A DNA stretch of 64,000 bases from a virus. Its lineage: Duplodnaviria; Heunggongvirae; Uroviricota; Caudoviricetes. Of the stretch, positions 51,001 to 54,000 are shown piece after piece (positions within the stretch are counted from its first letter, which is position 1; each line of letters starts with the position of its first letter). The position numbers are program-made. The stretch covers positions 1 to 64,000 of IMG/VR virus record IMGVR_UViG_2724679237_000005. The stretch is one strand, 5' to 3'.

Positions 51001-54000
51001 TTGTCCGAGTTATCGCCTTGTAATGCTTTTGCTTCCAAAAATGCGCGAGGCGTGGCGAATCCTGTCAGCTCCGCAAATTGCTCAAAATTAACCTGCTTGT
51101 TTTTGGCGTCTTCACGCAGGCTTACCCAGCTTACGTTTTCACGAACTAACTGAAGCCAGTCGCTATCGCCTGTTAACAGATAGATGTGTTCAACGGTTGG
51201 CTGCGGTGCCATGCGGGATACCAGCAGCCCGGCCAGATCATCCGCTTCTGCATCTTTTGCAATGAGTTGGGTAACTCCAAGCGCGGTCATCATTTTGAGG
51301 ATGTATGGCTTCTGGATAGCAAAGCCTTCCTTCATCTTTTTCATATCAGGATCGTCGTCGCGATTTGCTTTGTAGTCCGGGTAAAAGTCGCGACGCTTGT
51401 CACTAAATCCATCCCAAAGAATCATAGGTCGGGCATGGAGGATGGAGGCATAACGACGGACGTTCTTAACAAAGCCGAAAGCAGCCTGTACTTCCATTTC
51501 GCCGTTGTGCAATTTGTCAGATTGTTGGTGGTAATAACCCAGGCTATTGCCATCTACGAAGAGATAATTCACCGGTACATTCCTTCCAAAAAGTAAGGCG
51601 TCCGTAGACGCCTTACTGGTCACGTAATGGGATTACAGAGAGTCCAGCTCTCTCAGTAGGTCATCCAGACCTTCATCTTCCGTCGCAGATGCGGTTGCTA
51701 CAGATGTCGCTGCGACTGCTTCAGACTCTTTGACTGATACGGCAACGGCAGCGGAACTTGCCTCTGGTTTAAATTCAGTTTCAACGGCACGGAGGATTTC
51801 TTCATCAACCAGACTGGTTGGTTCAGAAGCCGGTGTGTGCGCGGTTGCTACAGCCGTCGCTCCTTCTGTATGACCAGTGACAGAGCCAAATCCAGGTAGT
51901 GCCGCAGCCGATGTTTTCGCGGTTGAGGAAATTGCTGGTGCAGATGCTGCGGCAGTTGGTGCAGCGATGCCAATCAGACGACCCATAGTGCGAACTGTCG
52001 ACAGAAGACGAGTTTCATCAGCCTGATTTGCGTATGCGATCAGATCATGCTGGGTGTTCCAGAATTTATCTTCGATATCGCCTTTGTAGACTTTACGCTT
52101 AGGCGAGACGTCATATTTGGTATCGCGACCAGAGCCAGTACGTTTAATCAGGAATGCGTAGCCTTCCTCTTTGCTCAGTGGATTGCCGATATCATCAGCG
52201 ATGTCTTCGGTGATTGCTTTGCAGATATCATCGAATACAGTAGACGGCAGCTCGATTAACTGGCATTTCTCAGCATCTGCGAAATCCTCACGAGCAGAAA
52301 GAATGCCGTTGACCAGGTAGCGAGGAGTGGCACGCATTTGACCGATGCGTTCTTCCATTGCTTTGTTACCCTTGTGACGAGCGCGACCTTCCATCACCAT
52401 TTCGCATAGCTGACAAGCGCGACCGTGAGTATGTTGCTCACAAATATAAGCGTTGGTTGCTTCTTTACCTTCCTCGTTCTGATACTTAACGTAGTGCATA
52501 CCGAAAGTCTGGAAGAACTTACCGTTTGGGTCGTCTTTATTCGGGAAGATGCGGATATAGTTGACGCCGTCTTTTAAGCGAGTCAGATCAACGTTGTTAC
52601 CACGTTTGGCGGCAATGTCTTCACGAGTTTTGTTAAGCAAATCAAGTAATGTCTTAGACATGTGTTTCTCCTTGTTGTGATTTGGCCGATGGCGCTATGC
52701 GCGTTGGGCTTTCGTTCATTCGTGGCTCTTTCGAGCTGTTAAATGATAGATCAGTACTTACTTATTATCTATCAAAAATCAACGGGGAGTAATAAAGCGT
52801 TCAGAGCCTAATCGCTCTAATTCAACGATGGCCATCTTTGACGCCTGAACGATCATGTCTCGGCGATGCGAAAAGGCGGCGACAGCATGTTTGTATATGT
52901 CTGCGATGTGCCGTGCTTCATCCAACTTCTGCCGTTTAGACAGATACTGTGGGTTTGTTTTAACCTTAGCGTCCAGTACAGATTCGTTGAACTTAATGCC
53001 GTTCATACTCAAGTTCTTACGCTCTGTGTCGTATAGCTTTGCTTCAACAGCTTCAAGGTTAAGTTTTGCTTCTGCGACACTTCTTTCTGCATGGGCGAGT
53101 TTTGAGCCATATTCCATCAACAGGCGGGGTTGTCTACGCCAGACTTCTTCCAGATTGTCTCGGTCAAACTCGAGATCAGACATTATTTTCTCGTAAATAT
53201 CGGCGATCATGCGCATTTCCTTATCACTTATCATTTTGTATTGATTATATCATTGTAATGATGAGGCAATGAGCTTGAAGATAGGGGGGGGAGGGGATAA
53301 GGGAAAACATGGCCTTTATGGCCATGTTTATTGGATCACGTCTTAATAGTTTCTGCTACGTCGGCTAATATCGCTTCTAGTCGTTCTCCCTCTTCAGGTC
53401 TGAAGTAAAGAATGTTGGGGTTAAACCCGTAAAAGACAGTAACGTCAAGGTCTGGAAGATACTCCTTCCTGCCGACCAAATCGGATGGCTTGTTTTTGTT
53501 GTTAAACAATGCCGTTGCCCGGCTGCCACACGTCAGCACATAGGTCGGACGCACCAGATTGATCTCTTCACGTATAAAGTCGGTGAACTGGCCGATCTCG
53601 TCTTTGGTGTAGTCTTTTTCTTTGTCTTTAACCTTCTTGCAAACGCCTGTGACATAGAGATCGCCCATGCGTAAATCTCCAGCCGTCAATAGCTTGGCCT
53701 TAAAGTCGTCGTATCCGTTCTCCATAAAGTAACCGGTTCGAGCATCATTGCCGTTCGCATTGTCCAGAATGATCATGATTTTCGGCTTAATACCAATGCT
53801 GGGGCGGATTAGTTCATCACCTAAGCCCATTTCAGCCGCCATCCGCGTCATGAGTACGTTAATTTCAGCCGAACGTTTGGGGTTCATCTCAAACGAACGT
53901 GAGGCTTTAACTGCGTCTATGACAAGATTTCCCATCAATTCAGCCTGGTCGCGTAGGCGCTCTGGAGCAGTTGCTGGCAGACTACCTGGCTCGATGGATG

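What the first reader, a model, noticed from the sequence alone, without database searches (positions are those of the whole stretch)
53336..53950. Polymerase C-fragment carries a UDG-like domain with altered catalytic motifs
The C-terminal roughly 200 aa of the C-fragment resemble the family-4 uracil-DNA glycosylase fold (IMIILDNANGNDARTGYFM in place of the GEGPG motif, then YVTGVCKKV and FYGFNPN segments). This takes the place where DnaE normally has its OB/tau-binding tail. A UDG-like module on a DnaE polymerase could sense uracil or modified bases, or act as a structural clamp.
Basis: inference. Interest (0 to 1): 0.45.

Follow-up and report, generated by a model that had tools for sequence, protein, structure and literature searches.

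The report
Degenerate uracil-glycosylase fold on phage-plasmid DnaE
The tail of this phage-plasmid's own DNA polymerase really is a uracil-DNA-glycosylase-type domain that has lost the residues needed to cut out uracil, but this unusual polymerase design was already noted in 2014 for the closely related Yersinia and Salmonella plasmids, and its function is still untested.

Summary
The window is an SSU5-like phage-plasmid of E. coli. Its DnaE polymerase is cut into two genes by an HNH homing-endonuclease gene.

**Fold.** The last ~160 residues of the 389-aa C-fragment (53339-53824, minus strand) are a true family-4 UDG fold:
- TIGR00758 E=5e-8 for the single sequence;
- family profile against PDB family-4 UDGs, E=8e-20;
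- AlphaFold model with pLDDT 89, whose top Foldseek matches are 4zbx, 1l9g and 1ui0 (TM 0.74-0.79).

The domain replaces the OB and tau-binding tail.

**Uracil chemistry is gone.** GE[AG]PG has become LDNAN. The uracil-reading Asn is Gly, the motif-B His is Asn, and all four Fe-S cysteines are absent. The same derived pattern (D-x-P-[NST] ... [NST]-P) is shared by 89 relatives. The domain is under strong purifying selection (pN/pS 0.075 against SSU5).

**Most likely function (inferred).** It is probably a non-excising DNA-binding or template-positioning module. Comparable cases are the inactive UDG domain of N4-like PolA and the poxvirus UDG processivity subunit.

**Novelty.** The architecture was reported by Timinskas et al. 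(2014) for Y. pestis and S. enterica plasmids, and the domain here is 94% identical to the Y. pestis one. It is real and biologically unresolved, but not new.

The parts
55285..57648 (-). DnaE N-fragment (787 aa): PHP, Pol III alpha catalytic core and fingers, plus most of a ~55-aa insertion at its C-terminal end.
   Evidence: Pfam PHP, DNA_pol3_alpha and DNA_pol3_finger. Aligns to aa 1-782 of the contiguous 1172-aa DnaE of phage PhiR41_1.
54502..55236 (-). Free-standing HNH homing-endonuclease gene (244 aa) that splits dnaE.
   Evidence: Pfam HNH_3 and NUMOD3; phrog_21964 HNH endonuclease, E=6e-158. Absent from contiguous relatives. Its stop codon overlaps the C-fragment start codon as ATGA.
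53336..54505 (-). DnaE C-fragment (389 aa + stop): end of fingers, (HhH)2, linker and UDG-like domain.
   Evidence: ORF. GAGG Shine-Dalgarno sequence 7 nt upstream of the ATG. Aligns to aa 789-1173 of PhiR41_1 DnaE. phrog_4335, E=7e-184.
53990..54259 (-). (HhH)2 domain, aa 83-172.
   Evidence: Pfam HHH_6, E=5e-17.
53924..53959 (-). Conserved linker motif RLRDQAELMGNL (aa 183-194). The family consensus is R-x-[KR]-D-Q-x-E-L-[ML]-P-G-L. Candidate internal beta-clamp-binding motif (compare E. coli alpha QADMF).
   Evidence: In 89 relatives: R 86/89, Q 83/89, L 71/89. The clamp-binding role is inference only.
53339..53824 (-). UDG-like domain (aa 228-389): family-4 UDG fold without canonical catalytic residues.
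   Evidence: pN/pS 0.075 against SSU5.
53753..53767 (-). Motif A equivalent, LDNAN (aa 247-251), in place of GE[AG]PG. D248 takes the position of Thermus UDGa E41.
   Evidence: Alignment. D is present in 83/89 relatives; P at the fourth position in 69/89, while the window has A.
53633..53656 (-). Motif 3 equivalent, YVTGVCKK (aa 284-291), in place of [FY]ITNxVKC. G287 replaces the uracil-reading Asn (Tth N80), and K291 replaces an Fe-S cysteine.
   Evidence: No relative has Asn at this position (0/89).
53414..53425 (-). Motif B equivalent, FNPN (aa 361-364), in place of xHP[SA]. N362 replaces the catalytic His (Tth H155).
   Evidence: At this position the 89 relatives have N 58, S 15, T 12 and H 1.

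Best explanation
**What it is (shown).** The C-terminal ~160 residues of the DnaE C-fragment are a bona fide descendant of a family-4 (archaeal or Thermus-type) uracil-DNA glycosylase. The domain has been fused to a C-family replicative polymerase in place of the OB fold and tau-binding domain. This is the signature architecture of the replicase of SSU5, pMT1 and pHCM2-type phage-plasmids and of a wider clade of ~105-117 kb siphophages.

**State of the domain (shown).** It has lost the Fe-S cluster ligands and the residues that recognise and expel uracil. It has fixed a different motif set that is itself highly conserved, and it is under strong purifying selection.

**How it most likely works (inferred).** It no longer excises uracil. 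It probably uses the old DNA-binding groove of the UDG fold (motif A, motif 3 and motif B loops) to grip or thread DNA next to the polymerase, most plausibly the template strand ahead of the active site. In that role it would take over the ssDNA-handling and processivity function of the missing OB domain. This parallels the catalytically dead UDG domain of N4-like family-A polymerases and the glycosylase-independent processivity role of poxvirus UDG.

**Related inferences.** A conserved Q-x-E-L-[ML] motif just upstream probably tethers the same fragment to the host beta clamp. In this window the module is delivered on a separate polypeptide, because a homing-endonuclease gene splits dnaE.
For: **Homology and fold.**
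- TIGR00758 E=5.2e-8.
- Profile against PDB, E=8e-20 to 1e-13 for family-4 UDGs and UdgX.
- AF2 model with pLDDT 89 and pTM 0.78; Foldseek top hits 4zbx, 1l9g and 1ui0 with TM 0.74-0.79.
- Free-standing phage UDGs and UDG-PolA fusions are among the BFVD hits.

**Replacement of OB and CTD.**, and Timinskas 2014.

**Loss of uracil chemistry.** Mapping onto Thermus UDGa gives E41D, G42N, E47D, F54M, N80G and H155N, with 0 of 4 Fe-S cysteines. In Thermus UDGa:
- H155S alone lowers k2/Km about 2,500-fold;
- N80A lowers it about 40-fold;
- E41 substitutions, including Asp, reduce activity substantially (PMC5387724).

**Family-wide pattern.** The derived pattern is not a local accident: D 83/89; no Asn at the N80 site in 89 sequences; His in 1/89 at motif B.

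**Maintained function.**
- pN/pS is 0.075 for the domain against SSU5, compared with 0.143 for the HhH part.
- pN/pS is 0.195 within the split lineage.
- Seven of the most conserved positions (D248, Y284, T286, K290, K293, G360, P363) lie in the three loops that line the DNA groove of UDGs.

**Precedents.**
- N4-like PolA carries a family-4 UDG with unconserved catalytic residues, proposed to act as a processivity module (PMC10201439).
- In SP15-like PolA and in the mpox holoenzyme, the UDG sits on the 5' template strand ahead of the active site (bioRxiv 10.1101/2025.03.26.645540).
Against: - No DNA-binding, activity or structural data exist for this protein. I found no experimental paper.
- The acidic residue at the E41 position and the thymine-excluding E47 position are retained (D248, D254). 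A polar residue always replaces the His (N, S or T in 85/89). An altered catalytic pocket therefore cannot be excluded.
- UDG families 2 and 5 work without one or other canonical residue.
- I could not place the domain relative to the polymerase active site.
- The element also encodes a gp32-like SSB and has a candidate clamp-binding motif. An extra DNA-holding module is therefore not obviously required.
Confidence: 0.55

Rival explanations
1. **Active 'read-ahead' glycosylase with altered chemistry.** The domain still flips out and excises a base from the template ahead of the fork. The base could be uracil at low rate, or another base such as a deaminated or modified pyrimidine. D248 and N362 would act in place of Glu and His. 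This is what the UDG domain of SP15-, YerA41- and phiLo-type family-A polymerases does.
For: - Asp is conserved in 83/89 sequences at the Glu position. E/D is conserved in 84/89 at the E47 position. A polar N, S or T is present in 85/89 at the His position.
- Conserved substitution rather than decay, together with strong purifying selection, suggests that a pocket is still in use.
- There is an experimental precedent for polymerase-fused active UDGs that bypass the resulting abasic site.
- The element encodes a ligase, a FEN and a DnaQ-like exonuclease that could process such sites.
Against: - The uracil-reading Asn is absent in all 89 relatives, and the His is absent in 88/89.
- H155S and N80A mutants of Thermus UDGa lose about 2,500-fold and about 40-fold activity.
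- The active polymerase-fused UDGs keep E, P and H, whereas this one does not.
- In the window even the motif-A Pro is Ala.
- No base-modification pathway was noticed in the window beyond a Dam-like methylase and ThyA.
Confidence: 0.22
2. **Protein-protein adaptor.** Having replaced the tau-binding domain, the UDG fold serves as a docking surface for another replisome protein of the element rather than contacting DNA. Candidates are the DnaB-like helicase, the DnaQ-like exonuclease, the gp32-like SSB, or the MoxR/CobS-like ATPase encoded next to dnaE.
For: - The domain occupies the position of the tau-binding tail.
- The element encodes its own helicase, SSB, exonuclease and an AAA ATPase adjacent to dnaE. 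That neighbourhood is conserved in the distant Acinetobacter element.
- Archaeal family-4 UDGs are known to bind PCNA (established knowledge; not tested here).
Against: The best-conserved positions coincide with the loops that form the DNA groove in UDGs, not with a new surface.
Confidence: 0.18
3. **Decaying remnant.** The C-fragment is a non-functional leftover of a polymerase gene destroyed by the endonuclease insertion. RefSeq annotates some copies in this way.
For: PGAP flags the C-fragment as 'incomplete; missing N-terminus' in NZ_CP070135.1. The plasmid has a RepB initiator and could rely on host Pol III during lysogeny.
Against: - The ORF is intact, with its own SD and an ATG coupled to the endonuclease stop codon.
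- 23 E. coli plasmids share the arrangement.
- Within the split lineage there are 9 synonymous against 6 non-synonymous changes, pN/pS 0.195.
- The same split, with intact C-fragments, recurs in Acinetobacter plasmids and in metagenomic relatives at ~30% identity.
Confidence: 0.05

Closest known systems
DnaE variant with a C-terminal UDG domain ('DnaEX' of Timinskas, Balvociute, Timinskas and Venclovas, NAR 2014; PMC3919608)
   Same: Same protein family. In that variant the OB and CTD domains of DnaE are replaced by an archaeal-type UDG domain (PF03167), in an additional polymerase of some Y. pestis and S. enterica strains. The window's domain is 94.4% identical to the Y. pestis plasmid NC_004835.1 copy and about 93.5% identical to S. 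enterica plasmid copies.
   Different: Here the gene is split in two by an HNH endonuclease gene. The paper gives one sentence on the architecture and no motif or functional analysis.
Family-4 uracil-DNA glycosylases (UDGa; Thermus 1ui0, Thermotoga 1l9g, Sulfurisphaera 4zbx)
   Same: Same fold and detectable sequence homology. These are the best structural and profile matches.
   Different: GE[AG]PG is replaced by LDNAN. The motif-B His is Asn, the uracil-reading Asn is Gly, and there are no Fe-S cysteines. The domain scores below the curated cut-offs of TIGR00758 and PF03167. It is fused to a polymerase.
[quoted passage not shown] 2023, PMC10201439)
   Same: A phage replicative polymerase carrying a family-4 UDG fold whose catalytic residues are not conserved. 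A processivity or structural role has been proposed.
   Different: Different polymerase family (A rather than C). The fusion is N-terminal rather than C-terminal, so recruitment was presumably independent.
SPO1-like and SP15-, YerA41- and phiLo-like UDG-PolA (Missoury et al. 2025, bioRxiv 10.1101/2025.03.26.645540)
   Same: The UDG fold is integrated in a phage replicase and positioned on the template strand ahead of the active site.
   Different: Those domains keep E, P and H, and they demonstrably excise dU. Their phages have hypermodified thymidine. Neither is the case, or known to be the case, here.
Poxvirus UDG (vaccinia D4 / mpox E4) as a subunit of the polymerase processivity factor
   Same: A UDG fold used as part of a replicative polymerase holoenzyme. 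It has an essential replication role that does not need glycosylase activity (established knowledge; location noted).
   Different: It is a family-1 UDG, a separate subunit bridged by A20/A22, and works with a B-family polymerase. It is still catalytically active.
Phage genes split by free-standing homing endonuclease genes (for example Aeromonas phage Aeh1 nrdA/mobE and split gp43 of T4-related phages; established knowledge)
   Same: An essential replication gene is cut into two translated ORFs by an inserted HNH endonuclease gene, and the fragments are presumed to reassemble.
   Different: The target here is a C-family polymerase. The same site is hit in very divergent relatives, and it coincides with a ~55-aa insertion.

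Membership tests
Family-4 UDG (UDGa) | alpha/beta UDG fold | tested here: met
   AF2 model with pLDDT 89. Foldseek gives TM 0.74-0.79 to 4zbx, 1l9g and 1ui0, E about 1e-10.
Family-4 UDG (UDGa) | Scores above the curated family thresholds (TIGR00758, PF03167) | tested here: not met
   TIGR00758 scores 32.8 bits against a cut-off of 125.3. PF03167 scores 17.9 bits against 24.3. Homology is nevertheless significant: E=5e-8 for the single sequence and 8e-20 for the profile.
Family-4 UDG (UDGa) | Motif A GE[AG]PG | tested here: not met
   LDNAN in the window; x-D-x-P-[NST] in the family.
Family-4 UDG (UDGa) | Motif B HP[SA] with catalytic His (Tth H155) | tested here: not met
   NPN in the window; His in 1 of 89 relatives.
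Family-4 UDG (UDGa) | Uracil-recognising Asn (Tth N80) and stacking Phe (F54) | tested here: not met
   G287 and M261 in the window. No Asn at this position in 89 relatives; the Phe position is variable.
Family-4 UDG (UDGa) | Four-cysteine 4Fe-4S cluster | tested here: not met
   None of the four positions is Cys in the window. CxxC is retained in 38/89 relatives and the third Cys in 39/89, which points to stepwise loss.
Family-4 UDG (UDGa) | Uracil excision activity | not testable with these tools
   Needs a glycosylase assay.
DnaE (C-family polymerase alpha subunit) | PHP, Pol III core, fingers and (HhH)2 | tested here: met
   Pfam and NCBIfam hits on the N- and C-fragments. phmmer hits to E. 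coli, Thermus aquaticus and M. tuberculosis alpha structures.
DnaE (C-family polymerase alpha subunit) | C-terminal OB fold and tau-binding domain (DnaE1 type) | tested here: not met
   No match beyond profile position 886/1146 of PRK05673. The region is occupied by the UDG fold.
DnaE (C-family polymerase alpha subunit) | Internal beta-clamp-binding motif after (HhH)2 | tested here: inconclusive
   QAELM at aa 187-191 resembles E. coli QADMF, and Q-x-E-L-[ML] is conserved in the family. No binding test was possible.
DnaE-UDG variant of Timinskas et al. 2014 | DnaE with OB and CTD replaced by a PF03167-type domain, on Y. pestis or S. enterica extrachromosomal elements | tested here: met
   Architecture. 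94.4% identity to the Y. pestis NC_004835.1 copy and about 93.5% to S. enterica plasmid copies. Text of the paper.
Intein or group I intron interruption of dnaE | Hint/intein domains, or a group I intron RNA, at the break | tested here: not met
   No Rfam match in 53000-58000. No intein Pfam hit. The N-fragment tail is also present in contiguous homologues.

The most novel reading that the evidence does not exclude
The derived motif set is strongly conserved: D-x-P-[NST], E/D at the thymine-gate position, and [NST]-P instead of H-P. It could mark a neofunctionalised pocket rather than a dead one. On this reading the domain flips and reads (or slowly excises) a non-uracil base or lesion in the template ahead of a C-family replicase. 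That would be a third, independent marriage of the UDG fold with a replicative polymerase, after A-family phage polymerases and the B-family poxvirus holoenzyme. Here it would be delivered in trans on a separate subunit created by a homing endonuclease.
Probability: 0.2. Interest if true: 0.6.

Novelty: already known. Interest (0 to 1): 0.3.

Why it matters
Replicative polymerases of three unrelated families now appear to have recruited a UDG fold: A (phage SPO1, SP15 and N4 types), B (poxviruses) and C (this one). The C-family case is the only one with no biochemistry. It sits in phage-plasmids of clinical Enterobacteriaceae and Acinetobacter that carry resistance genes, and it was found on about 970 PLSDB plasmids.

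Knowing whether the domain holds DNA, reads template lesions or docks partners would explain how a DnaE can work without its OB and tau tail. It would also show whether these elements replicate independently of the host clamp-loader complex. As a discovery, however, the architecture is already published, so the value lies in follow-up experiments rather than in the observation itself.

Tried and rejected
- **Group I intron at the break.** A permissive Rfam scan of 53000-58000 found only two chance-level hits. Rejected.
- **Intein or split intein.** No intein or Hint Pfam hit. The tail of the N-fragment is also present in the contiguous PhiR41_1, SSU5 and P0009 proteins. Rejected as an active intein; its origin is unresolved.
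- **Single-sequence AlphaFold2 of the C-fragment.** The result was useless (pLDDT 36). It was redone with a 35-sequence alignment.
- **Single-sequence phmmer against the PDB.** It gave only weak UDG hits (E 0.14-0.56). A profile was needed.
- **The search for homologous proteins with the domain.** It returned only 7 close hits. The exhaustive HMMER search supplied the family.
- **Literature searches for experimental work on this polymerase.** The terms tried were SSU5, pHCM2, pMT1, and DnaE with 'UDG domain'. Only the 2014 bioinformatic mention turned up. Aravind and Koonin 2000 (PMC15025) was not available.
- **Placing the domain relative to the polymerase active site.** This was not possible.
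- **UdgX-like covalent cross-linking.** Rejected, because there is no KRRIH-type loop His.
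Full report
**What the window is.** The region around the finding is 95% identical at the DNA level to Escherichia phages CMS-2020a and PhiR41_1, 92% identical to phage Cyrano and 85% identical to Salmonella phage SSU5. The 1.15-kb stretch around the endonuclease gene is 99.7% identical to ~108-112 kb E. coli plasmids such as NZ_CP070135.1. It is therefore an SSU5-type phage-plasmid.

The neighbouring genes form a complete replication and nucleotide-metabolism module:
- a gp32-like SSB, a 5'-3' exonuclease, RecA and a DnaQ-like exonuclease;
- RNase HI, a DnaB-like helicase and a ligase;
- NrdAB, ThyA, DfrA51 and a MazG-like pyrophosphatase;
- a MoxR/CobS-like ATPase with a CobT-like partner next to dnaE.

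**The gene.** In PhiR41_1 and SSU5, dnaE is one 3519-nt gene. In the window it is in three pieces on the minus strand:
- an N-fragment, 55285..57648 (787 aa; PHP, catalytic core, fingers);
- an HNH_3/NUMOD3 homing-endonuclease gene, 54502..55236;
- a C-fragment, 53336..54505 (389 aa).

The fragments align to residues 1-782 and 789-1173 of the contiguous protein. No group I intron and no intein signature is present. The endonuclease stop codon overlaps the C-fragment ATG (ATGA), and a GAGG lies 7 nt upstream. The C-fragment is therefore translated as a separate polypeptide.

**Checking the observation.**

*Position in DnaE.* Residues 8-173 of the C-fragment align with E. coli alpha 731-893 and contain the (HhH)2 domain. 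DnaE profiles are matched only to position 886 of 1146. The beta-binding, OB and tau-binding parts are therefore missing.

*Sequence evidence.* The remaining ~215 residues hit TIGR00758 (family-4 UDG) at E=5.2e-8, archaeal type-4 UDG at 1.6e-5 and Pfam UDG at 3e-3, all below the curated thresholds. An exhaustive HMMER search of 1.84 billion representative proteins found 144 relatives. Nearly all have the domain at the C-terminus of a ~1080-1170-aa DnaE or of a ~380-420-aa C-fragment. A profile of 43 of these domains matches PDB family-4 UDGs at E=8e-20 (4zbx), 3e-17 (1l9g, 1vk2), 1e-14 (1ui0) and about 1e-13 (UdgX).

*Structural evidence.* A single-sequence AlphaFold run failed (pLDDT 36). With 35 homologues the model reached pLDDT 89 and pTM 0.78. 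Its best PDB matches by Foldseek are the family-4 UDGs (E about 1e-10, TM normalised to target 0.74-0.79), then UdgX, then TDG/MUG. Against viral models the best matches are free-standing phage UDGs and UDG-bearing family-A polymerases, including that of SP-15.

**The motifs.** The profile alignment, with the PDB sequences added to the family alignment, maps Thermus UDGa residues onto the window as follows.

| Thermus UDGa | Role | Window C-fragment |
|---|---|---|
| G40-E41-G42-P43-G44 | motif A | L247-D248-N249-A250-N251 |
| E47 | thymine gate | D254 |
| F54 | stacks on uracil | M261 |
| N80 | reads uracil N3/O4 | G287 |
| C84 | Fe-S ligand | K291 |
| third Fe-S Cys | Fe-S ligand | F307 |
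| H155 | motif B, catalytic | N362 |

The N-terminal CxxC is also absent. In Thermus UDGa, H155S lowers k2/Km about 2,500-fold and N80A about 40-fold. All E41 substitutions, including Asp, are substantially impaired (PMC5387724). Canonical uracil excision is therefore very unlikely.

The changes are family-wide. In 89 aligned sequences:
- the Glu position is Asp in 83;
- the motif-A Pro is kept in 69 (Ala in 16, including the window);
- the N80 position is never Asn;
- the His position is N 58, S 15, T 12 and H 1.

About 40% of relatives still have the CxxC and the third cysteine. This is what stepwise descent from an Fe-S family-4 UDG would look like.

**Is it maintained?** Yes.
- Against SSU5 the UDG-like part has pN 0.046 and pS 0.616 (ratio 0.075). 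That is tighter than the fingers/HhH part, at 0.143.
- Within the split lineage (window against pSTEC388_1) there are 9 synonymous and 6 non-synonymous differences (ratio 0.195, small numbers).
- The most conserved positions of the family are D248, Y284, T286, K290, K293, E314, P320, G327, G345, D354, G360 and P363. More than half of them lie in the three loops that line the DNA groove and base pocket of UDGs.

**How it most likely works.**

*Shown.* The domain has a family-4 UDG fold, stands in place of the OB and tau tail, lacks the uracil-specific catalytic apparatus, and has a conserved derived motif set under purifying selection.

*Inferred.* The domain is a non-excising DNA-binding or template-positioning module that compensates for the lost OB fold. 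Three precedents support this:
- N4-like family-A polymerases carry a family-4 UDG domain with unconserved catalytic residues, for which a processivity role was proposed (PMC10201439).
- In SP15-, YerA41- and phiLo-type polymerases and in the mpox holoenzyme, the UDG sits on the 5' template strand ahead of the active site (bioRxiv 10.1101/2025.03.26.645540).
- Vaccinia UDG is needed for replication independently of its glycosylase activity (established knowledge).

I put this at about 0.55.

*Main rival (about 0.22).* An altered but live pocket may still read or excise a base. It is supported by the retained acidic residues at the E41 and E47 positions and by the always-polar residue at the His position.

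*Other rivals.* A protein-docking role replacing tau binding is possible (about 0.18). A dead pseudogene remnant is unlikely (about 0.05), given the coupled start codon, the selection signal and the recurrence of intact split forms.

*Upstream motif.* Just upstream of the domain, the linker carries a highly conserved R-x-[KR]-D-Q-x-E-L-[ML]-P-G-L motif (window RLRDQAELMGNL, aa 183-194). It resembles the internal clamp-binding QADMF of E. coli alpha in sequence and position. A role in binding the host beta clamp is an inference.

**Comparison with what is known.** Timinskas et al. [quoted passage not shown] PF03167' (PMC3919608).

- The window's domain is 94.4% identical to the copy on Y. pestis plasmid NC_004835.1 and about 93.5% identical to S. 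enterica plasmid copies.
- It is found on 974 PLSDB plasmids: Klebsiella 346, Escherichia 220, Acinetobacter 137, Enterobacter 91, Yersinia 63, Salmonella 49 and others.
- It is found in 29 phage records, including ~105-117 kb phages of Pseudomonas syringae, Stenotrophomonas, Xanthomonas and Rhizobium.
- NCBI already names some copies of the C-fragment 'uracil-DNA glycosylase' or 'uracil-DNA glycosylase family protein'.
- PHROGs files the C-fragment as phrog_4335, 'unknown function'.

The architecture is therefore already known. It works like, and descends from, a family-4 UDG, but it fails every catalytic membership criterion of that family. What this analysis adds is the family-wide derived motif set, the selection signal and the gradient of Fe-S loss. 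I found no experimental work on the protein.

**Side observations on the split.**

*How common it is.* Of 107 complete E. coli genomes carrying this dnaE region on a plasmid, 23 have the endonuclease-split form.

*The same break point recurs in very distant relatives.*
- About 35 of the 144 representative hits are 380-420-aa proteins that start MK[IV]x[ST]... at the homologous position.
- One metagenomic locus has an HNH_3/NUMOD3 gene immediately upstream, with the same ATGA overlap (L005).
- Another has a multi-HTH ORF between the N- and C-fragments (L006).
- A. baumannii pA52-1 has dnaE (785 aa), then a NUMOD4 protein (191 aa), then a 'UDG family protein' (421 aa).

*An associated insertion.* All split forms carry a ~55-aa insertion (GW.xV.L.DG...K.H....C.DG..RT.EEA... 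| MKI.S...) at the break. So do the 1172-aa contiguous proteins of PhiR41_1 and of the representative P0009. The ~1100-aa contiguous relatives lack it. It may be a fragment-complementation element or a scar of the mobile cassette. I did not resolve this.

**Verdict.** The function remains unknown, with a non-catalytic DNA-handling role the most likely. The architecture has been published since 2014. Interest is 0.3.

Noticed in passing
window 54502-55236 (-), with junctions at 55237-55287 and 54502-54505: dnaE is split by a free-standing HNH_3/NUMOD3 homing-endonuclease gene. The endonuclease stop codon overlaps the C-fragment start as ATGA, and there is a GAGG ribosome-binding site. 23 of 107 E. 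coli plasmids with this region share the split form. RefSeq variously calls the C-fragment a pseudogene, an HhH-domain protein or a uracil-DNA glycosylase.
   Followed up: partly
L005 3-569 and 566-1741; L006 1-2872; L007 2393-6636: The same break point in dnaE is occupied by mobile or foreign ORFs in relatives only ~30-40% identical. These are an HNH/NUMOD3 gene in a metagenomic contig, a multi-HTH ORF in another, and a NUMOD4 protein in A. baumannii pA52-1. About 35 of the 144 representative homologues are C-fragments starting MK[IV]x[ST]. This looks like a recurrent insertion hotspot that yields two-subunit DnaE polymerases.
   Followed up: partly
window 55288-55425 (-) (N-fragment tail) and 54476-54505 (-) (C-fragment head): A ~55-aa insertion (GWVTVSLDDGSTRKIHKAARLLCADGERRTYAEAMAINADITSFDI | MKITSVVEES) lies between the fingers and (HhH)2. 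It is present in all split forms and in the 1172-aa contiguous proteins of PhiR41_1 and of the representative P0009. It is absent from the ~1100-aa contiguous DnaE-UDG relatives. It could be a fragment-complementation mini-domain or a scar of the mobile cassette. No intein signature was detected.
   Followed up: partly
window 53924-53959 (-): A highly conserved linker motif, R-x-[KR]-D-Q-x-E-L-[ML]-P-G-L (window RLRDQAELMGNL), lies between (HhH)2 and the UDG-like domain. It resembles the internal beta-clamp-binding motif QADMF of E. coli Pol III alpha.
   Followed up: partly
window 57829-59064 (-) and upstream; L004 8876-12315; L007 1-925: A MoxR/CobS-like AAA ATPase lies immediately next to dnaE. 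In E. coli it is paired with a CobT-related protein. It is present both in the E. coli element and in the distant Acinetobacter element, so it may be a conserved accessory of this polymerase.
   Followed up: no
window 51633-52661 (-), 31155-31715 (-), 33735-34838 (-): The element encodes a gp32-like SSB (E=2e-67), a DnaQ/RNase T-type 3'-5' exonuclease that could be the proofreading partner of this DnaE, and an unusually long (367 aa) thymidylate synthase matched in two stretches, which suggests an insertion.
   Followed up: no
L001 685-3024 compared with window 49286-50359 (-): The RecA-like gene is 2340 nt in phage PhiR41_1 but 1074 nt in the window and in SSU5. This suggests an intein or other insertion in the PhiR41_1 copy.
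   Followed up: no
L003 9015-9473 and 13753-17044 (near-identical plasmid NZ_CP070135.1; corresponds roughly to window 9000-17000): The related plasmid carries an IS200C transposase and chromosomal-type genes metG (methionine-tRNA ligase) and apbC inside the phage-plasmid backbone. I did not check whether the window has them at the same place.
   Followed up: no
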